Source: Prorocentrum cordatum (taxonomy: Eukaryota). From it: 54,259 nt of DNA. A program made the position numbers and the translations under genes. Of the stretch, positions 3,392-54,259 are shown piece after piece. The notes beneath the pieces were generated by a model that was given only the letters and a program-made list of their open reading frames with translations, did not search any database and was not told the DNA's origin. Within the stretch, counting starts at the first letter, position 1. Each line of letters begins with the position of its first letter. The DNA is taken from assembly GCA_963575745.1 (NCBI GenBank), contig CAUYUJ010000255.1, positions 62,001 to 116,259 of the forward strand, written 5' to 3'.

Positions 3392-3424
3392 CCTCGCGCG
3401 CGCCGGGGTTCTTTCGAACGCGGC

Positions 3425-4619: not shown

Positions 4620-7160
4620 CGCGCCTCGGCCTCCGTGCGGCGAGGCGCCGAGCCGAAGGGCCAGACGCGCGGCGGCACGTGCTTCATTCAGGTGCGAGTA
4701 TCTCGCAGCCTCGAACGCGTTCACATCGTAGGAGGCCTGGAGGTCCCTGTACGTGTGGTACATGCGGCACGCGACTGCCAAGCGGACCATCGCGTGGGAA
4801 ACGTGGTTCTCGTCGCTCGGGCCAACGGAGTGGCAGCTGCATTGCAGCTCGAGGTGGGCCAAGAGGCAGTTCGAGAGGCGGCCCCTGGGGTACGCCAGCT
4901 CGTGCCAATGCCTCGGGCAAATGAGGTAGTGCGAGATGCTGTCCGTTGCGTGCTTCGCGTTGCACCCATAGATGCAAGGGCGCCGTTCCGGTTGAACGTG
5001 GAGACGGTACGACGCCGACCATGCGCCAGCCAGTGTCTTCATCGTGGGCCAGAAACGCGATGGGGGCACACGGGCGATCTTTGCTCGCGTGCGCCGCCAG
5101 TGGATCTTGACGCTGTTCGGGAGCTGGTACATGGCGGTCAGGTCATTGAACGAGATGGCGTCTGGATGCAGCTGCTCGTTGATCTCCTCCACGGCGGTGG
5201 TCTCGGACGGGTCGGAGACGACGTCGGCCATGTGTATCCATTGGCGGCGGAGGCGGTGTTCTTCAGCAGCAAGGTTGAACACCGCCTGCATGTCAGACGT
5301 GCGCGGAGTCCTCGCCATGTAGTTCGCCCTGCCACGGCGATTGGCGTCCGAGTCGTACCGGGCCTGTCGGCACATGTTGCGAGCGCGGCGGCGGAGGTCG
5401 TCTCCCGAGGAGGCGGCGAACAGGATTCGCATGCTCCATCGGCGAAGATGTCGGCGTACATGTTGTTCGCACCAGTCCATCCTGTCGCTGTCGCGGCGCA
5501 GCGTGTGGTCCCAGTTGGCGATGTACACGTCGGGGGGCCAGTCCGAGGCCCAATGAGCAAGCACTTCAGCGAGATCATGAAGCTCGCGAACGGCAGCAGC
5601 ATGATTATCTTGGTTTTCAACAGGTGTATGGGGCAGGCGGGAGGGCAGTGGGCAGTGACGCCGGCTGATGAGGAAACGAGAGCGTGGAGTTCAGCATTGC
5701 GCGAGTTGCAGGACTGAGCACTTGATTTCCACCTCCAATTGTAAGATCTTGCTCGGCGGTGGCCATGGGGATGAACGGGAACCAGGCCTTCAGGCGCTTC
5801 ACGGTGGTGATGTCGAAGTTGTCCTCGTGCAGGTGAGTCTGGAGGGCGGCAAGGTATTTCGATTGGGGTGATTCGCGTCGAAGTTCACCCGGCACAAAAG
5901 CAGGTGCGACATGCGGCGGCGGTGGTACCGCCGCCGCGGCAGCACGGCGGTGAGCAAGCAGTAGCTGCTGATGCGCGTGGTCTGCGTTCTTCATCCTTTT
6001 CAGTGCCATGAAGATGGAGCCCTTGCCCGTCGGGAAGGCGGTGCCTTCTTCGCAGCCTGGAGGTGCTGGGCGATCGAAATGGGCGAGGCCCAACATTCGG
6101 CAGACCAGTGGCCCCTCACCGTCGAGACCATGGGGAGGTTCGCCGTGGCGGTCTCGTTGAGCATGTCAAGCAGCGGGGGCCGAACCTTGATGGTAGAGGT
6201 AGCAGACCTCCACAGCGTCGCATTTATCAGCACCTCGACGCCCGTGGGGATGTTAGCACCAGCCCAGTTCTTCAGACCCAGGATGTCCAGCTTGGTGAAG
6301 GCCGAGGGCGGCGAGCGGATTATCTTGTGGAGCAGGTGAATCTCGCGACTGAGCGACAGGTCAGGAGCAGGGAAGAATTGGCTAACGTAGGAGAGCGTCG
6401 TCAGCGCAGAGGAGTTGTATAACGTGATGTTATGTTGAATCGGGGCGTGAGGTTCTCCGAGGATCTGGGCACGGTGTAGCCACTTGGCGGCAGGGGCAGC
6501 CCACTGAGCACGTTCGTCAGCTCCTGGACACATCACCACGCCGAGGTACTTGGCGGAGGAGCCGATCTTGAAGAGGGCCCAGTCGGCGTGGATGTGACCC
6601 AAAGTGTCCTTGAGGCTGTCGACCAGGTCGGAGGAGGCGATGGTCCAGACGGGTACCAAGACGCATTTGCGCGGTTGAAGATGCAAACTAGAATGTTGAG
6701 CAATCGCAAGCAAGTGAGGGCGTAACCCTTCGATGCCACGAGGACAGGCGAGAACACAGCCAAGATCATCAGCACATGCTGTGGCTATACCTCCTTGGAT
6801 GCGCTTGAAGAAGTCGTTGATGCCGATCAGCGCGGGGTCGAAGATCAGGGCCCAGATGGTGCCAACGAGGGGGCAACCTTGAGCGGCCCCGCTGGATGCG
6901 AGAAAGATCGGTCGGCGCGTGCCTCCCATCTCGAGCAGCGCGATCGGCATGTGGTAGAACGCCTGCATCAGGGCAGGGAGGCGGCCGTAGATACCCCAGC
7001 GCTGCAAGATGCTCCACATCCGGGCGTGCACGAGGCCTGGGAAGGCGGCGGCGATGTCCGTGCTCAGGAAGCACGGCTGCAGCGCATGAGCATCAGGCTT
7101 GGTGCTCTACTTGCGGCTGTGCGCGTCGGCTTCGACGATGTTGTCCAGCAACTGGCGTCC
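4620..7160 (-). mobile_element. 5'-truncated, decayed non-LTR retrotransposon (RT plus C-terminal CCHC-type zinc knuckle)
   Basis: RT motifs GRQLLDNI, DIAAAFPGL, GAAQGCPL, ACADDLG, LQPRKC, KYLGV (ORF 6000..7031 plus upstream frame, with an in-frame stop at 7107-7109). C-terminal CIYGC...DSISHYLIC in ORF 4503..5564. Frame breaks near 6000 and 5600. Confidence 0.9.
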
Positions 7161-29424: not shown

Positions 29425-30716
<1,292 letters not shown>

Positions 30717-33700
30717 GGCCAACGAGAGTGGCCCAGGCTGGACCGAGGAGGCGAGGATGCAAGGGTACCCTTGGGAACGCTGCCCGTCCTCACTATGCGG
30801 GCTGACTGCACGCTGGCCGAGGCGAGCGTGGAGGCGACCGAGGCTGCCGCCGCGCGGAGCAGGGCGACAGCGGCGCCCGCCGCCGCTGGAGCGCGGCGCC
30901 CGGCTCCCGCGGGAGAGGCCGCCGCCCGCGCCACCCCCCCGGCGAGGGAGGCGCTGCCGCCGCCGCCGCGGCAGCGCGGCGCCCGACCGCCGCGGCGCCT
31001 CCGCCTCCCCGGGCAGGGGCCCTGGGACAGGCGCAAACGAACAGGCACAAATCACTGGAGTCCCCCATAGTCTCCTGTGCCGTCTGGGCTCTCGCCCTCC
31101 CCGCCGCGTCCCACATCTCTTCCCATATTTTTCCCCGGGGGTCGACGAGGAATTCTACCTGCGTGCTCTTTCCCCTCCTGATCCCCCGCCGTCGCCGGGC
31201 GAGGGAGGCGCTGCGGCCGCCGCTGCTAAAGCGCGCGGCGCCTGGCCCCCCCGCGCCGCCGCCGCCGCCCCCGCCGCCGCCGGGCGGAGCGGGGCGGCTG
31301 CGGACGAGGGGGGCCACGGTCCCCCCCGGGGAGGGAAGCGGGCTTCGATGAACAGGAGCAGCAGCAGCAGCGAGGTCCGAGGACCGCGCCCGCGGCCGCG
31401 GCGGCGCGGCGAACAGAACGTGGACTCCGCGGGGCCTGACGCCCCCCCCCCCCGGAGTGGGAGAGAGAGGGGAGGAGGAAGCGGAGGAGGAGGAGCAAGG
31501 AGGAGGAGGAGGAGGAGGAGGAGGAGGAGGAAGGAGGAAGGAGGAGGAAAGTTCGAGGATGCCTTCCGCCATTCTCGGCATATGGGCGACCCGGGCGAAA
31601 GACTGGCCAGCATGGACACCCGGAGGGGCGAACGGATTTGGCTCTGGACGGGGAGGAAGGGGGGGAAAGAATGAGGATGGGTCGTAGCCATCGTCGTTGT
31701 GGCAATCGACATCTGCCCGTCCGCGCGTCCGTCCGTCCTCGTCGTCGCTGCTTCCGTCCGAGAGAAGGGGGGAGAGGAGGGAGAGGAGGAGGAAGAGGAA
31801 GGAGGAGAAATAGAGGAGGTAGGGAGGAGAACGAGGATGGAGAGGAGAAAGAGGAGGTAGGGATGAGAAAAAGGATGGGGGGAGAGGCGGGAGAGGAGGA
31901 GAAAGAGGAGGGAGGAGAAAGAGGAGGCAAGCAGGAGAGAGAGGATGGGGGGGAGCTGAGGGGGAGGAACGGCAGCGAGAAGAGAGAGCAGGGCGCCGGC
32001 GTGCTGGAGGAGGAGGCAGAGGGGAGGACGGAGAAGGAGGCCACAGACGGGAGGAGGGGGAAGGCTGCTCCCGGGGAAGGCTGCTCCCTCCAAGGGATAC
32101 AACTCACATCGAATCATGCCCCAGTCAATGCTTGCACTGAAGGGTCCTAGCGGATATTGAAAGATTTGGCCAACGCTTCCCGCCTATTTTGGTAGCCGGC
32201 TGGGTTCCCGGGTTCCCGGTTCTGGACTCCCGGGTTCATGGTTATTGGTTCCGGTCCGATTTCGGTGGGTTCCGGGTTCTCGGGTTCCCGGGATCCTGGT
32301 CGATCTCCTTATCGATTTCTGCACCGACCTTGCAGACGTGCTGCAGTGGATTTTCCAATGGATTTCAGTCAATACAAAGCCCCGAAACGGCGAGTGAAAA
32401 ACGAGGTGAATTGCGCGTGGAATCTGTTTAGTCTTCATTCCTGGCCCAAACAAATCCGCACAACATTCACCTCGAGATCTGGAACGAAATGCTCCAGGAC
32501 ACTCCGGGCCCATCCTGTCGTTTTCCAGTCGACATCCGCTCTGCGATGTTGGCGCCATGACACGGCGGAGGGCCCCAGGCCCAACGGGCAGGGCGCTCCT
32601 CGGGTCCTCCGTCCCAGGCGCCTGCAGGCAGACCGCGCGCCGGCGAGGCTGGCTGAGCGGTCAGCAGCCTCTCTCGCTCCACCTCGCTGAGCGATCTCCT
32701 CCTCCTCCTCCTCCTCCTCCTCCTCCTCCTCCTCCTCCTCCTCCTCCCCTTCCTCCTCCTCCTCCTCCCTCCTCCCCCGACATCCTCTTCCTCCCTCCTC
32801 ACCTCCTCTCCTCCTGCCTCCCCTCCTCCTCCTTCCTCCTACCTCCTCCTCTCGCCTCCTCCTCCTACTCCTCCTCCTCCTCCTTCCTTCCTCCGCCTCC
32901 TCCTCTCCTCTCCTCCTCCTCCTACCCCTCCTCCGCCTCCCCCTCCTCCTCCTCCCTCCGCCTACACTCCTCCGCCTCCTCCTCCTCCTCCATCCTCCTC
33001 CTCCTCCTCCCTCCTCCTCCTCTTCCCCTTTCCCTCCTCATCCTCCTCCTCCTCCCTCCTCCTCCTCCTCCTCCTCCCTCCTCCTCCCCCGCCTCCTCCT
33101 CCTCCTCCGCCGCGCCTGTTCCTCCTCCTCCTCCTCCTCCTCCTCCCTTCCTGCTCCTCCTCCGCCTCCCGCTCCTCTCCTCCTCCTCCCTCCGCCTCCC
33201 CTCCTCCTCCCCTCCCCCTTCTTCCTCCTCCTCCTTCGCCTCCCTCCTCCTCAATCCTCCCCTCCTCCTCCTCTTCCTCCTCCTCCTCCTCCCCTTCCTC
33301 CGACTCCTCCCTCCTCCTCTTCCTCCTCCTCCTCCTCCTCCTCCTCCTCCTCCATCCGCCTCGCCTCCCCCTCCTCCTCCCTCCTCCTCCTCCTCCTCCT
33401 CCTCCTCCTCCTCCTCCTTCTTCCTCCTCTCCTCCCCCCTCCTCCTCCTCCGCCTCCTACCTCTCTCCTCCTCCCCCCTCCGCCTCCTCCCGCTCCTCCT
33501 CCTCCTCCTCCTCCTCCTCCTCCTCCTCCTCCTCCTCCTCCTCAGGATGCGGAGCACAGCACCGTGAGCACGGCTTGACTGCGGATACAAACAAGCATCC
33601 ACACGGCCGAGGTGACAACGAGAGGCAGAAGGCACCGCACGGCCTCGAAACGGCTTCTCGAGCAGGCAGCTGCAGTGAGCTTGTGCGGTACGCGCCACAG

Positions 33701-41901: not shown

Positions 41902-43280
41902 TTAGCCTCAGCCTCAGCCTCAGCCTGCCTCAGCATCAGCCTCAGCCTCAGCTTCAGCCTGCCTCAGCCTCAGCCTCAGCCTGCTCCTGCATCAGCCTCA
42001 GTCTGCCTGCAGCCTCGGCCTCAGCCTCAGCCTGCCTCAGCCTGCCTTCAGCCTGCCTCAGCCTCAGCCTCAGCCTCAGCCTACCTCAGCCTCAGCCTGC
42101 CTCAGCCTCAGCCTCAGCCTTCAGCCCAGCCTGCTTCAAGCTCCTAGCCTCAGTCTGCCTTGCCCCTCCCCATCCCAGACCGGACCCCTCTGCACAGCCC
42201 ACCACCAGCCTCGCGCCTCAGCCTCAGCCTGCCTCAGCCTCAGCCTCAGCCTGCTTCAGCCTCAGCCTCAGCCTCAGCCTTCAGCCTCGGCCTCAGCCTC
42301 AGCCTGCCTCAGCCTCAGCCTGCATCAGCCTCAGCCTCAGCCTCAGCCTGCCTCAGCATCAGCCTGCCTCAGCCTCAGCCTCAGCCTGCCTCAGCCTCAG
42401 CCTCAGGCTGCTTCAGCCTCAGCCTCAGTCTGCCTTCAGCCTCGGCCTCAGCCTCAGCCTGCCTCAGCCTCAGCCTCAGCCTGCCTCAGCATCAGCCTGC
42501 CTCAGCCTCAGCCTCAGCCTGCCTCAGCCTCAGCCTCAGCCCAGTCTGCCTTCCGTCTCCCAACTCAGCTCTCAGGGCCTCAGCCATCGGACCTGCTATC
42601 AGCCTCAGGCCCAGACTCTCAGCATGCCTCAGCGTGCCTTCGGGCCTCCAGCCGCGAGCCGCGAGCCTCGCCTCTGCCTCAGCCTCAACCTCGTCTGGCA
42701 TGAGCCTCGGCTTCAGTCTCCAGCCTCAGCCTGCTTCAGCCTCAGCCTCAGTCTGCCTTCAGCCTCAGCCTCAGCCTGCCTCAGCCTTCAGCCTGCCTCA
42801 GCCTCAGCCTGCCTCAGCTTCAGCCTGCCTCAGCCTCAGCCTGCCTCAGCCTCAGCCTCAGCCTGCTTCAGCCTCAGCCTCAGTCTGCCTTCAGCCTCGG
42901 CCTCAGCCTCAGCCTGCCTCAGCCTCAGCCTGCATCAGACTCAGCCTCAGCCTCAGCCTGCCTCAGCATCAGCCTGCCTCAGCCTCAGCCTCAGCTTGCC
43001 TCAGCCTCAGCCTCAGCCTCGGCCTGCTTCAGCCTCAGCCTCAATCTGCCTTCAGCCTCGGCTTCAGTCTCAGCCTGCCTCAGCCTCAGCCTGCATCAGC
43101 CTCAGCCTCAGCCTCAGCCTGCCTCAGACTCAGCCTGCTTCAGCCTCAGCCTCAGCCTGCCTCAGCCTCAGCCTCAGCCTGCCTCAGCCTCAGCCTCAGT
43201 CTGCCTTCAGCCTCGGCCTCAGCCTCAGCCTGCCTCAGCTTCAGCCTGCAGCAGCCTCAACATCAGCCTGCATCAGCATT
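41902..43280. repeat. (CTCAGC)n / CTCAGCCTGC minisatellite
   Basis: Direct reading. It explains the 582-aa and 414-aa ORFs. Confidence 0.97.
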
Positions 43281-43283
43281 AAA

Positions 43284-43622
43284 AAATGTGGCCCGGGAAT
43301 GGAGTTCTGGGAACTCGAAGACCACGAAGTGGCCTACAGTTGGCTCCGGGAATTCAAAATCATGCCCAGGAATGGAGTTCTGGGAAGTCACAAGAGCACG
43401 ATAGTCGCAGGGCGGGATTCCTGCCGGGCATCCAGGCTGTGGACCGGGAATGGAGTTCTGGGAACTCGAAGACACGAAGTGGCCTACAGTTGGCTCCGGG
43501 CATCCAAAATGTGGCCCGGGAATGGAGTTCTGGGAACTCGAAGACCACGAAGTGGCCTACAGTTGGCTCCGGGCATCCAAAATGTACGCCGGGAATGGAG
43601 TTCTGGGAACTCGAAGACCACG
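43284..43622. repeat. About 73-bp tandem repeat, 5 copies (core GGAATGGAGTTCTGGGAA)
   Basis: Core at about 43296, 43369, 43447, 43519 and 43592. Confidence 0.9.
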
Positions 43623-44043
43623 CTTTGATCGTCGGGTGGCTGTAAGTGCGGTAAGAGCGTTCATCTTACATAATCTTAGTTAAGCCATAGAACGTACACT
43701 TGTTGATCGCGCATCTCATGTGTGCATATGCAAGACTTATGGTGTTTGTAAGTGTAGATGTAAGTAATATACTAAGTTAGATATCTCTGCTAAGTCGATG
43801 GGGCTGAACATATTCGTGTTTTTGCTAATCATTTGCGTATTTTTTATTCTTAACTTTTTTGAAATCCATTGAATTTCCGTTGTTGTTGTTGTTCAGTTGT
43901 TCAGGACCGAGGCGCCGCAGGTATTTGCTGCACCTCGCGGCCGCGGCGCTGCGGGCTGCGCGCATGCCCGCGGGGAGGGGGGAGGGAAGGAGGAAAATGT
44001 TTATCCATGTGTCTTCGGCCCTCCCTTATCCCACCTTTCCTTA

Positions 44044-44394
44044 GGCGGCGCACCGCCTTCTCCTCCGTCGCCTCGTCCTCCGTCGGCGGTAATCCGCCTT
44101 CTCCCCCCCCCATGGCGGCAATCCGCCTTCTCCCCCTCCGTGGCGGCAAACCGCCCTTCTGGCGGCAAACCGTTTTCTCCTCCTTTGGCGGCAAACCGCC
44201 TACCCCTTCTGGCGGCAAACCGCCTTCTCCTCCTCTGGCGGCAAACCGCCTACCCCTTCTGGGGGCAAACCGCCTACTCCTCCTCTGGCGGCAAACCGCC
44301 TTCTCCTCCTCGCGGCGGGAAACCGCTTCTTCCCAACCGCCCTATCGGCGGCTTGCTTTGCCGCCTCCTTCCACCCCCTCGGCGGCAAGCCGCC
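44044..44394. promoter_or_regulatory. Palindrome cluster A: about 12 copies of GGCGG-N4-CCGCC upstream of gene 1
   Basis: Copies at 44044, 44085, 44114, 44142, 44187, 44211, 44237, 44287 and 44381, plus imperfect copies at 44161, 44261 and 44314. The regulatory role is inferred. Confidence 0.6.
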
Positions 44395-44801
44395 CACCCC
44401 TTTCCCCCCTCCCCTCCCTGGCCTCTCCTTGACCCACCCTCCCCCATAGCTCTCTTCTTCCCCCCCGCGCACCCTTCGGCCCCCCCTCCCCCGCCCCCCC
44501 TTCGACACCCTCTCCCCCCTGCGCCCCCCCTCACCCAGGAGGAGGAGGAGGAGGAGGGAGAGGAGGAAGAGGAGAAGGAGGAGGAGGAGGAGGGGGAGGA
44601 GGGGGAGGAGGGGGGGGAGGAGGAGGAGGAGGAGGAGGGGGAGGAGGAGGAGGAGCAGGAAGAGCAGGAGTAGGATATGTCCGTCGCACGCGCGTTGGCT
44701 CGATCCGTTTTGGGCGAGCCCTCCTCCGAGGGCTTCGGGCGGCGTGCGCGCGCGGGGAGTCGCGCACTCCGCTCGGCGCGCGGTCGCGCCGCATCGCTGC
44801 C

Positions 44802-46899
44802 ATGGAGGGCATCCTTCGAGGCCGCCTGGAGGAGTCGCGGGCGGCGTTCGTAGCGCGCGGCAGTGCGACGGAGCACCTTCCTGCCTGCATCCAGGCGGCG
44901 ACGTCCCAGCGCTGGTCGCAGCTCCAGAGTGCGCAGTTTGCTGCTTTGGGCTGCGGCGTGGGGTGGGCGCAGTCCGAGCTGGGAGACTTCTTGCAGGCTC
45001 TGTCGTCGGGCAGCCTGCAGGGGAGGAAGCTCCAGAACTACGAGGGGTTCATTGAAATTCTGACGCCTCAGTTGTGGGAGTTCGTGCTCTCGCCGCATTC
45101 GGGCTTCACTGCCAAGATGGCGGCGTTCTCAGAGCACCTCGGGGCGCTTGGCCTGAGGCATCCGAGCTGCCCGACGGCCGCCAATATGGCAGCATTCTTG
45201 TTGCTGGTGTGCAAGCAGACAGGCGTGGAGACGGGCGAGATCACGAGGGAGCTGTTGCAATCATATCTGGCCACAGTGAAATCCTCGTTCAAGAATCTCG
45301 TGGCGACGATGCCGCCGCCCAGGGATGGCATCCAGGCTCTCCCCATCACGCCTGGGAGGCTCCAGTCTCAGTACCCCATCACGTACGTCGACGCCGTCCC
45401 GCCAGGTGTTGGAGCGACGGCGCCGCAGATAAATCCCGTCGAGATGGTGACGATTGCGAAGCTGATTAATCTCCGTGCAGGGAAGAAGAGCGGCCACCTC
45501 GCGCTGCCCGCGCCTGCGCCCGCCCGCGGCGGGCTGCAGCCATCCCACGGCCCAGGCGGTGGCTCTCCTCAGCAGCACCTCCCCATCGCGGCGGCCGATT
45601 CGTTCTCTGGGCGCTAGCCGACGGCTCCACGGGAAATAACAGAACGCATTCCCCCGCGGGACACCTGGTATTGGGTCGAGGGGTGGGTTCCTGGATCGGC
45701 GCGGGGTACGTTTCTGGATGCCTGGTTGGAGGGCGTGTTGTGAAATATTCCCCCCCCCCCCATCCCCCTAGGGGGATGGGGGGGGGGGAATATTTTCGTT
45801 CGGCGGTGATCCGCCTGATTCCAGGTGGGGCTTTCGCGCAGCGGCGGCCGCTGGCCCAACCCAGCCATCCAGCTGATCGACCGCTCGCAGACGCAGCAGC
45901 CGCAGGAGCCGTTGCAAGAACGAGCAGGTTCGATCCACCAGCTTTCGATGGCGGCGGGGAGTTCGGATGCGCCGTCGACGCAGCAACTGGCGGCACACGA
46001 TGGCGGCAAACCCGCCGACTGTCAGCCGTTATCGAGCACCGCCGCCGCCCAAACGGCCTCGATCAGCAAGAGCCGCGCGGCGAAGAAGCAGAAGAAGCAT
46101 GCGCTGCCGATCGAGCTCGACTCCGACTCCGACTTCGGCATCGTCGCCGTGACGCCGCCGCCCAAGGCTGAGAAGGTCGGCATCGCCGCAGGCTCTCTGA
46201 AGAAGACCCCGACGGAGGCGGCTCTGGCATGGTCGCGGCCATGGATAAGAGGACGAAGGCGGTCAAGACGAAAAAGAACGCTGAGGCGGTGAAGGCCCCC
46301 ACGCTTGCCACGGGCAATGCTGCTAAGAAGACGACGCCGCCTGGCAATGACAACGCGGCAAAGAAGACGACGCCGCCTGCCACGGGCAACGTGGCTAAGA
46401 AGACGCCGCCCCCCACGGGCAAGAAGACGGACGGCGCGGCTGGGAAGGACAAGCAGCGCAAGTGGGCGAAGCCGAGGTGGGAGATGCAGACCACACGCAA
46501 CTTGGCGAGCGGGGTTGGACCTCCCACCGATGAGGCGTCGGGCGCGCGCGGCGATTCCCAGCAGCCCCGCTGGGGTCGCAGTTTGCGCGCCCGCCGCCTT
46601 TCAGGCGACTGTTCATCGTTGCTCCGCCCCCCAGGTGCAGTTCCGCAGCGGCAGGGTCGGCGCCCCTGGCAGCAACGTCAGCCTGAAGTTCATCGCGGGC
46701 GATGAGGCCGACAAGGCCAGATTCTCACCGACGCCCTTCTCGACGCCCTCCTCCGCGCTCTCTTCATTTTCGCCCCTGCCTCGACGCCCCCTCCGCCCCC
46801 TGCTGCCTCGTTGCGCCCGATCGCTCCGAGGCCAGGGCCGTCGCGGAGGCGGAGGAGCTGGTCAAGAAGGAGCTCGCCGCCAGGGCGCGCGGCGAGTAA
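44802..46899 (+). CDS. Cassette gene 1: multi-exon hypothetical protein with K/T/P-rich region; probable frameshift
   Basis: GCCATGG start. Exon 44802 to about 45610, exon from about 45825, frame slip near 46228, and GC-AG introns 46505-46634 and 46716-46830 that join RNL|VQFRSGRVG...DK|ARAVAEAEELVKKELAARARGE in frame. First intron donor uncertain. Confidence 0.6.
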
Positions 46900-46963
46900 T
46901 TCGCGCTACGACTCTTCAACTCTCCAGGCCAACGGGGCGGCCTCGGGATAACAAAAAGGTCGT

Positions 46964-47093
46964 GGCGGATATGCAGCCTCGTGGCGGATATGCCGCCTTG
47001 TAGCGCAGCCTTCTCGCCTTCCAACTCGTGGCGGACATGCCGCCCCCGCCCCACCCCTTTGCGCTCCTCCGCCCTTCAGGCGGACATGCCGCC
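46964..47093. promoter_or_regulatory. Palindrome cluster B: GGCGG-ATATG/ACATG-CCGCC x4 upstream of gene 2
   Basis: 46964 (imperfect), 46983, 47030 and 47079. Confidence 0.6.
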
Positions 47094-47662
47094 GCCCCCC
47101 TCCCCTACTCGGCCCACTCCGCGCCCCCGCGCCACGTCCCTGCGCCCCCCTCTCCGCTGTCAGGCACTGGATCCCACGCCAACTAACGTCGGGGAGACGC
47201 CCACTGCTCGAACGGCGAAGGCGTTCACCAGAATGGCATGGGCGCGCGCGAAGGCACCGACGTTGCCACCGCCCGTTCAACGACGAAAACAAGTGAACCA
47301 AGACCTGCACATTCAAAGGGACGCCAGTTCACTTATATTTCTGGTTCCCAATGCCACCCCCACTCTGCCCCCTCCCCCGGGACCCCGTCGCAAGAACCAG
47401 CGGGGCCCTTCTGAGAGGCCCCCGAGGGCTCGAGGAGCTCCAAGACTTCAATGGGTCCATGGGCAACCCCCTCCCCCTCCTCCCGAAGTCTCGCTTCCGC
47501 GTCCGATTCCATTTCGGTTCGAGCCCGCGGCCCGCGGGTGCCCGCGAGCCCGCGCGGGGTCGGCCCCCCCCTTTCGCGCCGACGCGTGGGCTGGGGCCCG
47601 CGCGCCGAGGCTGCGCCGCAGCCACCGCGTCGCGCTCGGCGCCTCGCACTGCGGCCGCGGCC

Positions 47663-48706
47663 ATGGCAGACAGCGACCGCGCGTTCGACGCGTTGGAGGC
47701 AGCTGCATCGCCAAAACAAGTGGCCCCGCGTGCGGTAGCCAGGGACGCGCGCATCGCGCGCGAAACTGGCTGGCCGCTCTCGGTCGAACGGGTTTGGCGA
47801 TTCGGCGCAGGAGATGTTCGGGCCAGCGATGCAGTTGCTCTCCGACCTTGCGGGCGTGGACAACAACGCAGGGGATCGGTCTTCCTCCGCCAGCGGCAGT
47901 CGGCCAGCCAGCGCGACCACGTTGGCGGCGCAGCCAGCGCGATCGCGCAGCCCGCGCCACCCGCGGGCACCGTCGACGCCGCCGCGCAGGCGGGGGCCGA
48001 CGTCACCGCCGCGGGACCCGCGGCAGCGGCCTTTCCCGCCCTCGGCTCTCGTGAAGGAGCTCGCGTCGCACATGCGGGGCGCGACGCCTGTGGTGGAAGA
48101 GCCCCCCGAGGCGGTGGAGGCGCATCCAGCGCGGTGGAGGCGTTCAGGGCGCAGCTGCGAGCCTGGCTGAGCGACCCCGTTGGGAATCCCATCGACTGGC
48201 GGTCGGAGAACGTGCTCGCCGTGCTCAAGGAGTACCAGATGAAGTACGACTACAAGAAGTTCCGCGACCGCGGCCCGCCTGGCCCCGCCATGGGCGGGCC
48301 GCAGACGTGGCAGGGCCAGGAGTGGCGCGCCAATGCGAAGCGCTGGGGGAACCGAGGTGGCGCAAAGCGCGAGATGTACGCGAAGCTGCACGGCAACAAG
48401 GCAGCGCCGCGGGTGCGCGAGGCGCACGTCCCCAAGCCCCAGCTGATGCATCGGGAGCCCAAGGCGCCGAACTTGCCCAAGACGATGCCTCAGCAGGCGC
48501 CGTGGAGGACTGGCAATATGAACACTCCAGTTCCGCCTCCGCCGCCGAAGACCATGGGGCCGCCGCCGCCGAAGACCAGGCAGCCGCCAGCAGGGAAGCC
48601 CAGCATGGTGCAGCCGAGGGCAGGGCGTCGGCTGCAGCCGACAAGCAAGATGGCCCCACCGCCAGCGAAGCCGCGCCCGCCCGCCCGCCGAGATGTCTTC
48701 TTGTAG
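47663..48706 (+). CDS. Cassette gene 2: hypothetical protein with WQGQEWRANAKRWGNRGG motif and Pro/Lys-rich tail
   Basis: GCCATGG start in frame with ORF 47351..48706. SL-like 22-mer at 47502-47523. Coding-like composition in 48130-48420. Confidence 0.6.
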   Translation: MADSDRAFDALEAAASPKQVAPRAVARDARIARETGWPLSVERVWRFGAGDVRASDAVALRPCGRGQQRRGSVFLRQRQSASQRDHVGGAASAIAQPAPPAGTVDAAAQAGADVTAAGPAAAAFPALGSREGARVAHAGRDACGGRAPRGGGGASSAVEAFRAQLRAWLSDPVGNPIDWRSENVLAVLKEYQMKYDYKKFRDRGPPGPAMGGPQTWQGQEWRANAKRWGNRGGAKREMYAKLHGNKAAPRVREAHVPKPQLMHREPKAPNLPKTMPQQAPWRTGNMNTPVPPPPPKTMGPPPPKTRQPPAGKPSMVQPRAGRRLQPTSKMAPPPAKPRPPARRDVFL

Positions 48707-48868
48707 GGTGATCGCGTGGACCTGCAAGCGGGCTGGGGTGCATAGCTTCCGTAATTCGAGCGCGGATAGTTGCAGCGATCCGCGCTGACGCGTCATGACG
48801 CGCCGCCTCTCCCCGCCTCGTCTCATCTCATCTCTCCTCCCCTCTCTTCGTTGCCGATCTATCTCATT

Positions 48869-49099
48869 GGCGGACGTGCCGCCTCCCCCCGCCTGGCGGA
48901 CAACCGCCGTTCAGATACGAGCATCGGCGCATCGGGTTTGTTCTATGCGGTTGGAAAAAAACACCAGTCCTTCCCTGTGCCACCCATTGGCGGCTAAACC
49001 GCCCTGAAGCCTCCATTGGCGGCCACGCCGCCCATTGGCGGCTAAACCGCCCATTGGCGGCCACGCCGCCCTGAGCCCTCCATTGGCGGCTAAACCGCC
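48869..49099. promoter_or_regulatory. Palindrome cluster C: GGCGG-N4/5-CCGCC x7 upstream of gene 3
   Basis: 48869, 48895, 48989, 49018, 49037, 49056 and 49085. The last five are each preceded by CCATT. Confidence 0.6.
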
Positions 49100-49258
49100 G
49101 CCGCCGCATGCTGGCATCCCGAAATGTGCGATGCCACCGCGCCTCTTACACATGTATGTTTTTGTTGTTGGGACGCTGTATCGGCTCGAATCAAGGCGCG
49201 CACAGGCTCGCGCCCCACGCCGCCCCTGCGCTAGCCGTGCACTTCTCGCCCTGCCGCC

Positions 49259-49897
49259 ATGGCAGGCCAGCAGGGCGAGAAGACCGTCATGTTCGGCTTC
49301 AAGTGCCCACAGAGCAGCAGCTGCAAAAGGGGCGGCAAGTGGTTCCAGGGAGAGACAGCGGAGGCGGCCAGGAACAAGCTGGTGAACCACCTTCGCGTGT
49401 CGCCGTACCACGACTTGAGCGAGGACGAAGCGGAGGTAGCTGCTGTCGCACTCGAGCCCGGCTCGTGGGAAGTCGACCTCGCGGAGTGGCGCCAATGGGA
49501 GGAGGAGAAGGCCAACTGGGGCTCCGCCAAAAGGCGCAAGGGGGCGCCGAAGGTCGAGCTGGCGCCAATCCCTCCACAATCCCGCGTGGAGCGCTCGCAC
49601 CAGCTGAAGGACGCGTTCTCGGGGGGCAGCGGATCGTCAGGCGCAGCTTCGTCAGCCACGGCGGGCATGAGGATGTCCACGGCGTTGGCCAGCCAGAAGT
49701 CGCCCGATAGCATCGTGGTGCTCAACGGCACCCAGTGCCAGGCTGTGCTCGACTCGTTGCGCCGCGCGCGTACTGCGACGCAGATGTGCGCCCAGATATC
49801 GGAGCGCGCGGTGAACGCTTTCCGCCAAGAGGAGCAATGCATCGCCGAGTGCGAGGACGTGCTCGCGAGCTGGCTGGTGCGCAACGCGACCTCGTAG
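49259..49897 (+). CDS. Cassette gene 3: hypothetical protein with C2H2-like N-terminal motif and C-terminal helical/coiled-coil region (212 aa)
   Basis: GCCGCCATGG start. CPQSSSC...NHLRVSPYH. Amphipathic C-terminus DSLRRARTATQMCAQISERAVNAFRQEE. Strong G/C at third codon positions. Confidence 0.8.
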   Translation: MAGQQGEKTVMFGFKCPQSSSCKRGGKWFQGETAEAARNKLVNHLRVSPYHDLSEDEAEVAAVALEPGSWEVDLAEWRQWEEEKANWGSAKRRKGAPKVELAPIPPQSRVERSHQLKDAFSGGSGSSGAASSATAGMRMSTALASQKSPDSIVVLNGTQCQAVLDSLRRARTATQMCAQISERAVNAFRQEEQCIAECEDVLASWLVRNATS

Positions 49898-50582
49898 GTG
49901 CAGGTGCACGGCTGGCAGCACTGATGTCGCCTCAGCATCAGTAGCCTCATTCGCGCAGGCGGCGCGACGCGTCGGCCCTACACGCCCCCCTCCCACTCCT
50001 CCAAAGCAATTTCAATCCACACCCCTGTGTCAGAACAAATTAGGACACCCCCACACACTCCATCCGCACTCAATTCGTGAAGGCCGCCACGCCGAGGTGA
50101 ATTTTGGCCACGCAGGCGGCCGAGTAGCCGTCCCCCAATGCCAGGCGATATGGGGGCGAGTGGACGAGCGGAGCGGGAGGAAGGTGAGGGAACTTCGGCG
50201 GATAAGACAGGTGGGCGGTTGGATGGGATTTGGCAAAAGGGCTGGGTGGAGAAAACTGCATCCGCATAAGAATGAGTGCGGCTATTTTCTGGATGTGCTG
50301 CATCGCCATGTCCGCCCACCCCCCCATCGCCTTGCATGTGATGACGCTCAGGCAGCGCGCCCCGATTGCGCGCGCTCGCCCGTCTCTTCGCTGCCGCTCA
50401 GGCAGCGCGCCTCGCTTCCGCGCTCGCCCGTCTTTTCGCTGCCGCTCAGGCAGCGGTTTGAAGCACGCGGCGCCGTCCGCGGTCGGTAGCGCAGGGCGCC
50501 GCTCCGCCCCTGCTGCTCCGCTTAACTCACTCGGCGGACGTGCCGCTACGCCGCCGCCATGCACTGGCAAAAAAAAGTTGGC

Positions 50583-50730
50583 TGTTATCATATGTTAGCA
50601 GATGTTATCACGCGCCTGATAACACCTGATAACACCTGATAACACCTGATAACATGTTATCAGGTGTTATCATGTGCTAGCATGGTGTTATCACACGCCT
50701 GATAACATATGATAACATATGATAACATGA
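50583..50730. repeat. TGATAACA / TGTTATCA direct and inverted short-repeat cluster
   Basis: tgataacacc tandem units and the reverse complement tgttatca on both sides. Confidence 0.85.
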
Positions 50731-50808
50731 TGTCAATTTTGTGTGGTTTTCATGTTGCGCGCAATTCATTTCAGTATCCGTATCACCTCGTGCGTCCGCC
50801 ACGCTTCG

Positions 50809-51087
50809 AGCGGCTAGTCCGCTGGCGGCCAATCCGCCTCCCTCGCCGCACCCCTGCGCCCTCTCAAGCGGCGAGTCCGCTGGCGGATATGCCGCCCCCT
50901 TCATACCTCACTCCACCCCTCCCTCCACCTTTGAAGCGGCTATTCCGCCGGCGGCTATCCCGCCTCACATACCGCGCGTTTTCTTCGTCATCGCTTTGCG
51001 TCCAGCTCATCTTGGCATCAGGGCCGCGCGCGACGCGCGGCTTCTCGCGTGCCAAGGCGGTCACGCCGCCATGGCGGGGACGCCGCC
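50809..51087. promoter_or_regulatory. Palindrome cluster D: (G/A)GCGG-N5-CCGC(C/T) x8 upstream of and overlapping the gene 4 start
   Basis: 50809 (AGCGG-CTAGT-CCGCT), 50824, about 50867 (AGCGG-CGAGT-CCGCT), 50882, 50935, 50950, 51056 and 51073. Confidence 0.6.
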
Positions 51088-53009
51088 CGCTGAAGATCAC
51101 CAGCAGCATTCTCTGGCAGTGATGTTCGGAGCAGCCAGGCCGAAAAACAAGGGAGTGAAGACCAAGGCGCCCGCAGCGAAGCCCCGTGGGAAAGCTAAGC
51201 TATCGGGGACGCAGATGACACTGACTGGACAGCTTGTGCCGCCGCTCGCATTGACCGACGCAGGGCCGCCGAAGGCACGCGGGAAAAGCAAAGGCAAGGG
51301 CAAAGGTAAGCACCCCGCAGCGTTGAGGACGGCTCGCAACGCTGCGTCAGCCGCAGCTCCCGCCGAAGAACTGCCTCCTCAGGGCGCAGCGGCTTTGCCA
51401 CCAGAGCCGGACGACGCAGCGTCAGAGGCGGCATCGGGCTCCGAGGAGCGCGGCGACGAGTTTGGTTCCGAGCTCGGCGTCAAACAGGATGAGCTTGAGA
51501 GTGCCAAGCGTGAGCTTGAGGAGGAAGAGGCTCCACCGCAGGGCGCGGTAGCCAAGGTTGAGATTGAGGAGCGCTCGCCCGAGGCGGCAGCGCCGCAGGC
51601 GGAGGAGGAGGAGGCAGCTCAGGACGATCCGCCAGCAGGCGCTCCCCAGGTAGGGGAGTTCGTGGATGTGCATGGCATCGAGGATAGCATCGTGCGTTGC
51701 AACCGCTGCTGTCGCACGGCAAAGGAGTGCAACTACAGGATCAGGGCGAAGGGCCAGTCGACTTACCAGTGCGACGCGTGCAACGCGAACGGGGTGCGCC
51801 TTTCTCGGAGGTTCGGACAGTGGCCGCCAAAGTGTTTCGCCAAAATGAAGAGTGAGTTCAAGCAGCAGTTCTACAAGGATCTGGCAGAAGATCCTGGGCT
51901 GTCGAACCTCGATCGCATTGAAGCCTTCGTGGTAAGCTCAATCACTGTCCAACGGATGGAGGAGGAGCGCGTCCGCAAGGGTGGCAAGTACCTTCCGCTG
52001 AGGAAGTGGGCGCACGACGGCTTCGACGCGAAAAAGATTGAAGATAATGTGCAGGATAAGAGGTGGAACCCTGATCTCGGGGAGTGGACGTACAGGCCGC
52101 AATTGGAGGCGGCCTGGAGCGAGACAGCGGAGGCCGCAGTGCGCAACGAGCTGTACACCGATAAGAGGACGCAGGCGAAGCAGAGCGGCCCGCGGGCAGC
52201 GGCCTCGACGGGCGTCGCAGAGCACGGCGGCGACAAGGGCGACAGAAGCGACGAGAGCGACATGTCCAGATCCAGGCGGCGCCGCAGGCGCAGGTCTGAC
52301 AGCCGCAGGAGGAGGAGGCGCAGCATGAGCAGGAGCGACAGCAGGGGCAGGCGCGACAGCAGGAGCAGACGCCGCGACAGACGTCGCGACACCAACCGCA
52401 GCAGGAGCCGCTCGCGCGGCGACCGCGACAGGAGCAAGAGCCGCCGCAAGGGCAGGAGCAAGAGCCGCGGCAAGAGCAAGGACAGGAGCAAGAGCAGGCC
52501 GTTTGGGGGTTCAACGCAGGGGTGTCGCCTGGGTTTCGCATTCGTTTTCGGTTTCCGTTCAACTCTTCAGGTTCGGATCGGGTTATTGATTTCGCTCGGC
52601 TCGAAGTGTTGTCATTTTCGGACAACCCCGAAGGCTCCGCAGGGATAAGGACGCTGAGAAGGAGCGGAGGCGACAGGAAGCGAGGGAGAAGGCCGAGCAG
52701 GCCTAGAAGGAGACGCAGGAGAAAAACCTGGCGCTGAAGTGGATCGGCACCGCAACGAGGCTCGAGACAGAGCTGGACGGGTACCTCGAGCATGAGAAGG
52801 CGGACAAGGTGCCGTCATGGGCTGTGAAGAACGAGAAGGCGGCGAGGAAGTCTGTGGCAGTCATGAAGGCGGTGGCGCAGAAGCGCGTGCACAGCGGCGT
52901 GGCGTTGACGATCACGCAGGACGAGGCCATCAGCATCCAGAAGGATGCGAGCTCGGCGGCGAGGGCCATCGCGGGGATGCTCAAGGAGGCGCAGAAGCAC
53001 AGCACCTGA
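51071..53009 (+). CDS. Cassette gene 4: Cys-cluster (zinc finger-like) protein with acidic N-terminal region, GKYLPLRKW..GFD domain and RS-rich tract; one in-frame TAG
   Basis: GCCGCCATGG at 51071 (alternative ATG 51122). CNRC..C..CDAC at 51698-51781. A GC-AG intron at 52498-52642 joins SKSR|DKDAEKERR to a frame ending at TGA 53009. TAG at 52704-52706 interrupts the last exon. Confidence 0.75.
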
Positions 53010-53100
53010 GCGCCCCATGGTGGCCCAGTACATCATGAAGTACGGCCTGAAAAAGGTGGAGAAGGACCCGAATAAGCAGCGGCCGCTGGGCCGCTCGTGA

Positions 53101-53708
53101 GCAGGGGCGGCAGGCAGTTGGGCCGCTCCTGACGAGGTGTGTGATTTCGTACAATTGTTATTGTTGGTGAAACAACATTTCCACCGCCACCCCACTCGTT
53201 ACCACCGCAGCCCTTCGGTTGGCGGGGATGCCGCCTTTCCACTCTCGCAAGCCCTTGGCGGACATGCCGCCTTGCCTTCATTTGGCGGAGATGCCGCCTT
53301 TGCTGCCCATCGCGCTCCGATGCCTCACTTGGCGAGGCGAAGCGCTTGCATAACTCCCTCCTGCTCGAGCGCGTCCTGCCCGAGACCCTACCGCGCGAGC
53401 TGTGGCTCGCGAAGGCCAGCGACACCGTTGGGAATCCCATCGATTGGCGGTCGGAGACGAAGCAGAGGCGAAGCAGCTCCTTGGCAGGGGCGGCAGTTGG
53501 GCCGCTCATGACGAGGTGTGTGATTTCGTACAATTGTTATTGTTGTTGAAAAAAAAAACATTTCTTCGTTGCCATCGCCACCCCACTCGTTGCCACCGCA
53601 GCCCTTCGTTTGGCGGGGATGCCGCCTTTCCACTCTCGCAAGCCCTTGGCGGACATGCCGCCTTGCCTTCATTTGGCGGAGATGCCGCCTTTGCTGCCCA
53701 CCGCGCTC
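53101..53708 (+). repeat. Direct duplication of an intergenic module of about 220 bp (TTGTT-rich tract plus three GGCGG-N5-CCGCC palindromes; cluster E)
   Basis: 53101-53317 vs 53484-53708. Palindromes at 53221/53257/53284 and 53612/53648/53675. Confidence 0.9.
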
Positions 53709-53762
53709 GCACCGTTCTCTCGCGTTTCCCAATGACATGATCTGCCACCGTCCCACCCCTTA

Positions 53763-53784
53763 TCCGTAGTCTTTGTGGCTCAAG
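53763..53784 (+). other. Full-length spliced-leader relic (19/22 match)
   Basis: tccgtagtctttgtggctcaag vs TCCGTAGCCATTTTGGCTCAAG, 43 nt before ATG 53828. Confidence 0.85.
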
Positions 53785-53827
53785 TGGAGCCGCTCGAGGT
53801 CGTGCCCCTTCGCGGTCTTGCGCCGCC

Positions 53828-54124
53828 ATGGCGAGCATCGCGGACAAGTACGACGTCGATGACTTCGAGCTCATCACGGGTGGCAGTGCGTGGAGCTGGG
53901 CGACCATCGTGGCGCGCTTCATCGAGTGGCGCAATCGTTGCCGCCATGCACGCGCCGCTGGCATCAAGGGCCAGATGCTCATCGACAAGGCGCGGCGCAT
54001 GATGGAGGAGGCGCGCCGCACCGAGGAGCGCGGCAAGATGCTGTGCCAGATGTCGAAGCAGACGGTGCAGGACATCCCAGGCGGCATTCGGTTCTTCTGC
54101 CGCCAGCCGCACCAGGAGAGCTGA
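53828..54124 (+). CDS. Cassette gene 5: small hypothetical protein (98 aa)
   Basis: GCCGCCATGG start right after the SL relic. Coding-like codon usage. No domain recognised. Confidence 0.7.
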   Translation: MASIADKYDVDDFELITGGSAWSWATIVARFIEWRNRCRHARAAGIKGQMLIDKARRMMEEARRTEERGKMLCQMSKQTVQDIPGGIRFFCRQPHQES

Positions 54125-54259
54125 GCGGCGATCGGCTGGGCCGATAGAGGAGGATAAGGAGGGAGAGGAGGCAGGATGAGGAGAGGAGGAGGAGGTGGAT
54201 GAGGAGTTGGAGGCAGCACGCGCACCCGCACTAAGAGCCGCCAGCCGCCGCCGCGCCCG

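What the first reader, a model, noticed from the sequence alone, without database searches (positions are those of the whole stretch)
44044..54124. Modular cassette of five co-directional orphan genes, each headed by a cluster of the same GGCGG-N4/5-CCGCC palindrome
Seen in sequence: five plus-strand genes (44802, 47663, 49259, 51071, 53828), all with GCCATGG starts. Each upstream intergenic region holds a cluster of the palindrome (about 12, 4, 7, 8 and 6 copies). Spacers vary (CAAA, TAAT, ATATG, ACATG, ACGTG, CTAAA, CCACG, AGATG) while the arms stay fixed. Two copies show a compensated arm change (AGCGG..CCGCT at 50809 and about 50867). I saw no such clusters in the preceding 43 kb. Established: dinoflagellate genes are thought to depend little on sequence-specific promoter elements, so a shared operator-like array is unusual. 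Inference: this is a co-regulated gene set with its own cis-element, probably part of a large undescribed mobile or endogenous viral element, or an array in which the palindromes act as binding or recombination sites between cassettes.
Basis: partly seen in the sequence, partly recalled or inferred. Interest (0 to 1): 0.9.

Follow-up and report, generated by a model that had tools for sequence, protein, structure and literature searches.

The report
Palindrome-headed five-gene repeat, red-tide dinoflagellate
A stretch of at least 10.6 kb that is repeated many times in the genome of the red-tide alga Prorocentrum cordatum carries five same-direction genes, each preceded by a cluster of one short GC-rich palindrome, which may be a rare example of a sequence-specific control element in a dinoflagellate.

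Summary
GGCGG-N4/5-CCGCC occurs 36 times in the window against 0.94 expected. 32 of the 36 lie at 44044-53689, in five clusters that each sit upstream of a plus-strand gene.

The region is not a set of single-copy orphans. It is one decayed copy of a multi-copy unit of at least 10.6 kb in Prorocentrum cordatum. A second copy, 98.8% identical and with a different left flank, sits in a mis-binned bacterial MAG contig. Four public runs cover the region collinearly, one of them with thousands of diverged contigs.

That gene belongs to a large unnamed family of marine-eukaryote proteins.

The motif is oriented (T before, pyrimidine after). Its arms are fixed and its loops are free. No cluster follows the last gene.

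My best reading, at about 0.4, is arrays of protein-binding sites that act as gene-upstream modules. Rivals are sense-strand hairpins and REP-like selfish or recombination units. I found no transposase, integrase, polymerase or capsid gene. I could not examine RNA.

Earlier follow-ups in this scan noted other transposon-specific short palindromes elsewhere in this genome.

The parts
43621..54248 (+). Repeat unit shared with the second copy L001 (98.8% identity over 10,642 columns). The left breakpoint is at 43621. The right end lies beyond the window.
   Evidence: blastn and MAFFT of L001 against the window; flanks read; contigs of 4 runs cover it collinearly
43640..43905 (+). AT-rich segment at the left end of the unit. 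It starts GTAAGT and ends with a pyrimidine run plus CAG, so it looks like an intron (inference only).
   Evidence: sequence read
44044..44394 (+). Palindrome cluster 1: 10 copies plus 2 degenerate ones, all with N4 loops (mostly CAAA), in 26/50-bp tandem units. It lies 408 nt upstream of the gene A ATG.
44802..46899 (+). Gene A. Exons: 44802 to about 45610; about 45825/45842 to 46504; 46635-46715; 46831-46899. Introns 2 and 3 are GC-AG. The splice sites of intron 1 are not fixed. The window copy has a stop at 45615-45617 (TGG in L001) and lacks one C after 46227.
   Evidence: tblastn of family members P0016 and P0026 is collinear over these exons; L001 ORFs; indels; family search
45746..45815 (+). 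Inside intron 1 of gene A: a palindrome of about 50 nt (C12...G10 arms) followed by one lone GGCGGTGATCCGCC.
   Evidence: sub-threshold hairpin hits in Rfam
46964..47093 (+). Palindrome cluster 2: 3 exact copies plus 1 degenerate in the window (intact in L001 and in all 4 runs). It begins 65 nt after the stop of gene A.
   Evidence: (46975 A>C)
47663..48706 (+). Gene B. GCCATGG at 47663. The intact copy has a 300-aa open frame from the ATG equivalent to 47814. The window copy lacks one C after 48125.
48869..49099 (+). Palindrome cluster 3: 7 copies, with loops CTAAA and CCACG alternating at a 19/29-bp period. It ends 160 nt upstream of the gene C ATG.
49259..49897 (+). Gene C, 212 aa, intact in both copies. 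It has an N-terminal C..C..H..H pattern and only a weak sub-threshold Pfam C2H2 hit.
50583..50727 (.). 145-bp imperfect palindrome built of 10-bp TGATAACA-type repeats, between genes C and D.
50533..51087 (+). Palindrome cluster 4: one copy at 50533; three doublets AGCGG-N5-CCGCT + GGCGG-N5-CCGCC at 50809-50964; and two copies bracketing the ATG of gene D (51056, 51073).
51071..53009 (+). Gene D. GC-AG intron at 52500-52642. Contains a Cys cluster (C-x2-CC-x5-C-x13-C-x2-C), an Arg/Ser-rich stretch and a C-terminal helical part. The window copy has a nonsense codon (52704 T, A in all runs).
   Evidence: alignment with 10 relatives (9 P. cordatum gene models and one ENA protein)
53221..53689 (+). 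Palindrome cluster 5: 3 + 3 copies. It is doubled by a 383-bp tandem duplication (53090-53317 and 53473-53708) that one run lacks. The junction holds a 40-nt piece of gene B.
   Evidence: joint 53100>53484 in X6
53763..53784 (+). Relic spliced leader (19 of 22 positions of the DinoSL consensus), 44 nt upstream of the gene E ATG and 74 nt downstream of the last palindrome.
   Evidence: score 32; only 1 of 400 random 300-nt segments scored as high, and its score equals that of the other relic, at 3360
53828..54124 (+). Gene E, 98 aa, intronless, intact in both copies. Probably a retrogene.

Best explanation
The region is one decaying copy of a multi-copy unit of at least 10.6 kb in the Prorocentrum cordatum genome. 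The unit holds five co-directional genes (A-E). Gene A belongs to a large unnamed family of marine-eukaryote proteins. Genes B-E are known so far only from this organism or from near-identical sequences.

Each gene is preceded by an irregular array of 4 to 12 copies of an oriented motif, T-GGCGG-N4/5-CCGCC-Y. I read these arrays as homotypic clusters of binding sites for a sequence-specific DNA-binding factor that recognises the GGCGG half-site. The factor could be encoded by the host or by the unit itself. On this reading the arrays serve as gene-upstream promoter or activator modules, and perhaps insulators, that let each gene of the unit be expressed wherever a copy lands.

Shown: the enrichment, the orientation, the fixed arms with free loops, the position upstream of each gene, the multi-copy state and the decay of this copy.
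Inferred: protein binding, the promoter role and the mobility of the unit.
For: Enrichment:
- 36 matches against 0.94 expected; 32 of 36 lie in the unit.
- In a 6.5-Mb GC-rich MAG, 34 of 82 matches lie in the single 11.9-kb contig that is a copy of the unit.

Constraint:
- All five clusters share the 10 arm bases. The 37 copies carry 23 different loops, and the spacers differ from cluster to cluster. The arms were therefore kept while everything around them diverged or was re-amplified locally.

Position:
- 34 of 37 copies are intergenic.
- Every gene has a cluster upstream. Cluster 1 has no gene of the unit before it.
- In L001 the 708 nt after gene E hold no copy. That fits 'upstream of genes' better than 'downstream of genes'.
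- Two copies bracket the ATG of gene D.

Multi-copy unit:
- A second copy is 98.8% identical and has a different left flank.
- 4 of 4 runs cover all 30 bins collinearly. X8 has 16,682 contigs, 10,695 of them only 90-95% alike.
- Ten protein clusters, 78-99% identical to gene D: nine P. cordatum gene models on eight or nine contigs (eight distinct contig lengths among them), plus one ENA protein.
- A chimeric gene model joins exons of genes A, B and D.

Decay of the window copy:
- It has a stop codon, three 1-nt deletions and a nonsense codon relative to L001 and to all runs.

Background:
- A review and the genome paper (passages found with 'find' in PMC11453091 and PMC10666404) describe no such cis element in dinoflagellates.
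Against: - No binding protein was identified. Pfam finds no DNA-binding domain in the five products.
- Loop length varies (12 N4, 25 N5). A rigid dimer would tolerate that poorly, whereas a hairpin tolerates it freely.
- The flanks are not symmetric (T before in 25 of 37, A after in only 2 of 37). The signal is therefore read in one orientation, which also fits a one-strand (RNA or ssDNA) function.
- The three single-mismatch copies inside clusters of L001 are all G-T on the plus strand, and none is A-C. This is a weak hint of sense-strand pairing.
- Cluster 2 lies 65 nt after the stop of gene A but 570-720 nt before the start of gene B.
- Between the window and L001 the motif shows no extra conservation: 2 of 126 differences fall in 543 motif bases, against about 6 expected. 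That is what a dead copy would show, and it gives no support for function.
- I could examine only 43.6 kb of other host DNA.
Confidence: 0.4

Rival explanations
1. The palindromes act as hairpins on the sense strand, in pre-mRNA or in transiently single-stranded DNA. In the space between one gene's 3' end and the next gene's spliced-leader acceptor they would help 3'-end formation, termination or processing, or protect the upstream mRNA.
For: - Fixed stem, free loop of 4 or 5 nt, and mean predicted RNA energy of -7.9 kcal/mol for the 14-15-mers.
- One orientation throughout, with pyrimidine-rich sequence after the stem.
- Three of three single-mismatch copies in clusters are G-U-compatible on the plus strand.
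- AGCGG pairs with CCGCT in 3 of 3 copies in L001.
- Clusters 2, 3 and 5 start 65, 163 and 212 nt after the preceding stop codon.
Against: - No cluster lies in the 708 nt after gene E in L001, and cluster 1 has no gene of the unit before it.
- Cluster 4 starts 636 nt after the stop of gene C and ends at the ATG of gene D.
- The stem sequence itself is invariant and does not covary. That is not needed for a mere hairpin.
- The three compensated copies are tandem duplicates, so they amount to about one event.
- I could examine no RNA evidence.
Confidence: 0.27
2. The palindromes are selfish or recombinogenic units, comparable to bacterial REP/BIME elements or to cassette recombination sites. They would spread and amplify in the spacers, or mark the joints at which genes, including retroposed cDNAs, were added to the unit.
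For: - Local tandem amplification with cluster-specific units.
- A 383-bp duplication of the spacer that holds cluster 5, present in the window and in L001 but absent in run X6.
- A 40-nt piece of gene B in that spacer.
- Gene E carries a clear relic spliced leader just downstream of a cluster. Genes B and D have marginal ones (scores 20 and 18; 11 and 24 of 400 random segments reach these).
- Earlier follow-ups on this genome describe other transposon-specific short palindromes.
Against: - No recombinase, HUH nuclease or transposase was found in the window, in L001 or in the searches.
- The Atlas lead linking gene A to tyrosine-recombinase-derived folds was not borne out by the structure searches.
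- The motif is nearly absent from the other 43.6 kb of the window.
- Genes A and D have introns, so they are not simple cDNA inserts.
Confidence: 0.15
3. The clusters have no function. They would be GC-rich minisatellites produced by slippage, whose shared arms reflect common descent plus gene conversion.
For: The clusters are tandem arrays. Between the two copies available, the motif is no better conserved than its surroundings.
Against: Five separate arrays keep the same 10 arm bases and the same orientation, while their loops, spacers and periods differ. Common descent without constraint would have let arms and loops drift alike.
Confidence: 0.1

Closest known systems
Homotypic GC-box arrays in viral and cellular promoters (for example the Sp1 sites in the 21-bp repeats of SV40; recalled, not tested here)
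   Same: Several copies of a short GC-rich site (GGCGG core), irregularly spaced, directly upstream of genes of a compact multi-gene element.
   Different: Here the sites come as inverted pairs with a 4-5-nt gap and a fixed orientation. The organism is a dinoflagellate, in which no such promoter element is described. No Sp1-like protein was identified.
Bacterial REP/BIME elements (repetitive extragenic palindromes)
   Same: Short GC-rich palindromes confined to spaces between co-directional genes, often in clusters, with a conserved stem and a variable loop.
   Different: REPs are spread over the whole genome and are tied to RAYT transposases. These palindromes are confined to one repeat unit of a eukaryote, and no such enzyme was found.
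Integron gene-cassette arrays with attC sites
   Same: Co-directional genes separated by palindromic sites, with signs of modular rearrangement in one spacer.
   Different: attC is a single 57-141-bp imperfect palindrome per cassette, read by an adjacent integrase. Here there are arrays of 14-15-bp units, no integrase, and two of the genes have introns.
Gal4-type CGG-Nx-CCG upstream activating sequences of fungi
   Same: Inverted CGG triplets, several per upstream region, shared by a set of genes.
   Different: In each Gal4-type family the spacer is fixed; here it is 4 or 5. No Zn2Cys6 domain was detected in the five products.
Other transposon-specific short palindromes noted by this scan in the same genome (e1-7695511, e1-7630429, e1-7628073)
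   Same: One short self-complementary word, written many times in one orientation and confined to one repeat family of this dinoflagellate.
   Different: Those motifs run through coding sequence as well, and their elements carry transposases. This one is kept to the spacers ahead of genes, and no transposase is known for the unit.

Membership tests
Integron-like cassette array | Integrase (tyrosine recombinase) gene next to the array | tested here: not met
   Pfam on the five products, on 92 further ORFs of the window and on the ORFs of L001 finds no integrase. Only 54 kb plus 1.3 kb of extra flank were available.
Integron-like cassette array | One long imperfect palindrome (attC) per cassette | tested here: not met
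   The spacers hold 4-12 copies of a 14-15-bp unit instead.
REP/BIME-type extragenic palindromes | Short GC-rich palindromes restricted to extragenic space, often clustered | tested here: met
   34 of 37 copies are intergenic, in five clusters.
REP/BIME-type extragenic palindromes | Dispersed through the genome and associated with a RAYT/HUH enzyme | tested here: inconclusive
   Only 4 scattered matches in the other 43.6 kb of the window. No HUH domain was found. The whole genome could not be scanned.
Gal4-type UAS (Zn2Cys6 sites) | Zn2Cys6 binuclear-cluster protein and a fixed spacer between inverted CGG | tested here: not met
   No Zn_clus hit at E <= 1 in the five products. The spacer is 4 in 12 copies and 5 in 25 copies.
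Tyrosine-recombinase-derived domain (Crypton, DUF3504, NDC10_II) for gene A | Recombinase-like fold and/or a family profile match | tested here: inconclusive
   The Atlas lists such families at score 0.93 among 30 hits. Pfam finds nothing in gene A or in 40 relatives. Confident models (pLDDT 89 and 95.6) have no PDB match by Foldseek. With VIA-align the best Z for the core is only 4.5.
Dinoflagellate retrogene (gene E) | Relic spliced leader just upstream of an intronless ORF | tested here: met
   19 of 22 positions at 53763-53784, 44 nt before the ATG. Score 32, reached by only 1 of 400 random segments (it scored 34, as does the known relic at 3360). The consensus used was recalled from memory.
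Endogenous virus or polinton-like element | Capsid, pPolB, packaging ATPase or integrase genes | tested here: not met
   None found in the window or L001 by Pfam. No relative of gene D in IMG/VR. No BFVD match for the gene A model. The right end of the unit is unknown.
3'-end hairpins after genes (Mimivirus 'hairpin rule' type) | A palindrome after each gene, at the poly(A) site | tested here: inconclusive
   Clusters follow genes A, B, C and D, but none lies in the 708 nt after gene E. Poly(A) sites could not be mapped.

The most novel reading that the evidence does not exclude
The unit is a eukaryotic counterpart of a gene-capture platform. The palindrome clusters would be landing or joining sites at which new genes, including reverse-transcribed spliced-leader mRNAs such as gene E, are added one after another. 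Each captured gene would at once acquire the unit's own upstream control module, so the clusters would be both recombination sites and portable promoters.
Probability: 0.07. Interest if true: 0.9.

Novelty: new variant of a known kind. Interest (0 to 1): 0.6.

Why it matters
Dinoflagellates are regarded as poor in sequence-specific transcriptional control. The reviews I consulted describe only a TTTT box and very few transcription factors (PMC11453091, passages). A short, oriented motif that is strongly constrained and repeated ahead of every gene of a multi-copy unit is a concrete candidate cis-element, and it can be tested with oligonucleotides and nuclear extract.

It also adds to a pattern seen elsewhere in this genome, in which each large repeat family carries its own short palindromic word. 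That pattern may point to a general tagging or control system for repeats in these huge genomes.

There is a practical point as well. A copy of this eukaryotic repeat sits in a public MAG labelled Myxococcales, which is a contamination case.

Tried and rejected
- **RNA evidence.** No RNA holder was listed among the 24 runs. All four runs I laid are contigs of DNA or of unknown kind, so transcript starts, ends and splicing could not be seen.
- **JGI metagenome contigs.** No relative of gene D and no match to a two-palindrome pattern taken from cluster 5.
- **IMG/VR.** No relative of gene D. A double-motif pattern found 20 loci. The two with clusters (L019, L027) are 24-nt coding repeats in phage genes and are unrelated.
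- **Pfam.** Nothing credible for the five products, for 40 of the 150 listed relatives of gene A, for the flank ORFs of L001 or for P0002. In the other 43.6 kb there is only a reverse-transcriptase fragment at 6003-7106 on the minus strand.
- **PDB by sequence.** Nothing for the gene A or gene D profiles.
- **Structure of gene A.** The models are confident, but there is no Foldseek match in PDB or BFVD. VIA-align found only a generic helical bundle for residues 1-74 (Z up to 7.4) and Z <= 4.5 for the core. The tyrosine-recombinase lead from the Atlas is therefore left open. The Atlas gave nothing for gene D.
- **Rfam.** Only sub-threshold miRNA-like hits on the three long palindromes.
- **Terminal repeats.** No terminal inverted or direct repeats between the ends of L001. 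No further piece of the unit in that MAG.
- **Relic spliced leaders.** Not supported upstream of genes A and C (scores 12-14, typical of random segments).
- **Earlier notes of this scan.** Nothing by place, by sequence or by the motif word that bears on this region.

Full report
**Observation**

The pattern GGCGG-N4/5-CCGCC occurs 36 times in the 54,259-base window. Dinucleotide-preserving shuffles give 0.94 on average, at most 5, and 0 of 100 reach 36. Thirty-two of the 36 lie between 44044 and 53689. The four others (3782, 3785, 5918, 10943) are isolated or sit in low-complexity sequence. The core GCGG-N4/5-CCGC gives 58 matches against 7.5 expected.

If the outer pair is allowed to be A..T or G..T, the unit holds 37 copies: 34 intergenic and 3 inside gene spans. 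The five GCCATGG starts are there.

**Organism and copy number**

The conserved part of the fourth ORF finds ten protein clusters at 78-99% identity. Nine are unnamed Prorocentrum cordatum gene models, with eight distinct contig lengths among them. The tenth comes from ENA. No whole genome is held for the window.

A scan of one genome per prokaryote species with the first ORF found a single locus, L001. It is an 11,916-base contig of a MAG labelled Myxococcales. L001:703-11332 aligns with window 43621-54248 at 98.8% over 10,642 columns. To the left of 43621 the two differ completely. The window has a 73-bp satellite there. L001 has GC-rich sequence with a long minus-strand frame. At the right the window merely has six extra bases and then ends, while L001 runs on for 584 bases.

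Contigs of four public runs (a marine metagenome and three runs labelled as organisms) cover all 30 bins of 43630-54259 collinearly. They share about 1% differences from the window. One run has 16,682 contigs on the stretch, 10,695 of them only 90-95% alike. Depths of 23-40 in a run of only 206 million letters suggest a high copy number, but the tool warns that summed contig depth is not a copy number.

One P. cordatum gene model (P0002) strings together exons of the first, second and fourth genes. That shows the same order at another locus. The region is therefore one copy of a multi-copy unit of at least 10.6 kb, and not a set of single-copy orphans.

**State of this copy**

Relative to L001 and to all four runs, the window copy has:
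- a stop where the others read TGG (45616),
- three missing C residues (after 46227, 47227 and 48125),
- a nonsense codon (52704).

Differences between the two copies in genes C and E are all amino-acid changing (6 of 6 and 2 of 2, read). This is a decaying copy.

**Genes**

The ORF at 44802 and the broken frames at 45948-46899 form one gene, A. Members of its family align collinearly to 44811-45485, to 45753-46079 (with a shared GRWPNPA motif) and to 46623-46721. A fourth piece at 46822-46884 matches their C-terminal helix. Introns 2 and 3 (46505-46634 and 46716-46830) are GC-AG, the commonest type in this species (51% GC donors; Table 2 of PMC10666404, seen as a passage). The splice sites of intron 1 are not fixed.

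A HMMER search of 1.84 billion representatives finds 151 proteins at E <= 0.001 and 14 at E <= 1e-10, typically 450-540 residues long. The ten I looked up all come from ENA or Logan assemblies and carry no names. None of the 40 I scanned has a credible Pfam domain.

The family has four parts: a helical N-terminal domain with an LGLRxPSExT motif, a long basic linker, a short C-terminal beta-type motif, and a final helix. AlphaFold models are confident (pLDDT 89 for 271 residues, 95.6 for the core). They match nothing in PDB or BFVD beyond a generic helical bundle. A language-model lead to tyrosine-recombinase-derived families is therefore left open.

- Gene B has its long frame from 47814 in the intact copy.
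- Gene C is 212 aa, with a C..C..H..H pattern.
- Gene D has a GC-AG intron at 52500-52642, a Cys cluster and an Arg/Ser-rich tract, and ends at 53009.
- Gene E is 98 aa.

None of B-E has a known domain. Gene C has one near-identical relative only.

Gene E is preceded, 44 nt before its ATG, by a relic spliced leader matching 19 of 22 positions of the recalled consensus. Its score is 32; only 1 of 400 random segments scored as high, and that score equals that of the other relic, at 3360. Gene E is therefore probably a retrogene. Upstream of genes B and D the matches are marginal (scores 20 and 18). Upstream of genes A and C there are none.

**The motif**

The ten arm bases are the same in all five clusters. 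The 37 copies carry 23 different loops, 12 of four and 25 of five bases. Spacers and tandem periods differ from cluster to cluster.

The motif is oriented. The base before it is T in 25 of 37 copies (29 of 39 in L001). The base after it is T or C in 28 of 37 and A in only 2.

The variant AGCGG is matched by CCGCT in 3 of 3 copies in L001. The window has lost one of these pairs. The three are tandem duplicates, so they count as about one event. The three single-mismatch copies inside clusters of L001 are all G-T on the plus strand.

Between the window and L001 the motif is no better conserved than its surroundings (2 of 126 differences in 543 motif bases). That is expected for a dead copy.

As a GC-rich control, the 6.5-Mb MAG has 82 matches, 34 of them in the one contig that is the unit.

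**Position**

Every gene has a cluster upstream. The last copy ends 408, 570-720, 160, 107 and 139 nt before the ATG of genes A to E. Two further copies bracket the ATG of gene D.

Cluster 1 has no gene of the unit before it. The 708 nt after gene E in L001 contain no copy. This favours a gene-upstream role. However, clusters 2, 3 and 5 also begin only 65-212 nt after the preceding stop codon.

**Interpretation**

I think the arrays are most likely homotypic protein-binding sites that give each gene of the unit its own upstream module (confidence 0.4). In favour are the invariance of the arm sequence, the upstream position and the irregular spacing.

The variable loop length, the one-way flanks and the G-T variants fit the main rival, sense-strand hairpins acting in the precursor RNA or in single-stranded DNA (0.27).

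A REP-like or recombination role (0.15) draws on four things: the local amplification, the 383-bp duplication of one spacer that one run lacks, a 40-nt piece of gene B in that spacer, and the retrogene E.

A function-free minisatellite (0.1) does not explain why the arms, but not the loops, are identical across five arrays.

No transposase, recombinase, polymerase or capsid gene was found in the window, in L001 or in the searches.

**What is known**

Passages found in the P. cordatum genome paper (PMC10666404) and in a 2024 review of dinoflagellate genomics (PMC11453091) mention no palindromic cis-element. The review describes a TTTT box in place of TATA and few transcription factors. Two further literature searches listed nothing on such a motif; I saw only their listings.

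Earlier follow-ups of this scan on other pieces of the same genome describe other short palindromic words confined to particular transposon families. I did not test those. They suggest that this is one case of a wider habit of this genome.

**Limits**

- No genome-wide scan was possible.
- No RNA evidence could be examined.
- Only two DNA copies were available.
- The right end of the unit is unknown.
- The supplements of the genome paper were not consulted.

Noticed in passing
L001 (whole locus; contig JAAEPE010000042.1 as printed): A public MAG labelled Myxococcales contains an 11.9-kb contig that is 98.8% identical to this dinoflagellate repeat, so it is eukaryotic contamination of a bacterial bin. 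No other contig of that MAG matched the ends of the unit.
   Followed up: partly
window 50583-50727: A 145-bp imperfect palindrome made of 10-bp TGATAACA-type repeats lies between genes C and D. It is conserved in L001, and run contigs break there. It looks like an iteron or origin, or a foldback insertion. Its function is unknown.
   Followed up: partly
window 45746-45795: A nearly perfect palindrome of about 50 nt with C12 and G10 arms sits inside intron 1 of gene A. It is reminiscent of the inverted-repeat 'introner' introns reported for this species.
   Followed up: no
window 3350-3393: Tandem truncated relic spliced leaders (a 15-bp period, 2.9 copies) lie far from the finding. This is the classic mark of a recycled retrogene.
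   Followed up: partly
window 6003-7106 (minus strand): A reverse-transcriptase fragment (Pfam RVT_1, E 5e-06, below the curated cut-off). It is the only recognisable domain in the other 43.6 kb.
   Followed up: no
window 41904-43622: A 1.4-kb (AGCCTC)n array is followed by a 73-bp satellite (4.6 copies) that abuts the left breakpoint of the unit exactly at 43621. The first 40 bases of the unit (43621-43661) are also shared with another sequence variant in three runs, seen as a loose end at 43661.
   Followed up: partly
window 29426-30716 and 32696-33543: Very long trinucleotide arrays ((GTA)n of 1.3 kb and (CTC)n of 0.85 kb), plus many other CCT/GGA arrays through the window.
   Followed up: no
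window 44537-44675: A (GGA)n array lies between cluster 1 and gene A. The N-terminal extension of a relative only 69% identical (P0012) looks like a translation of such an array, so its position may be old.
   Followed up: partly
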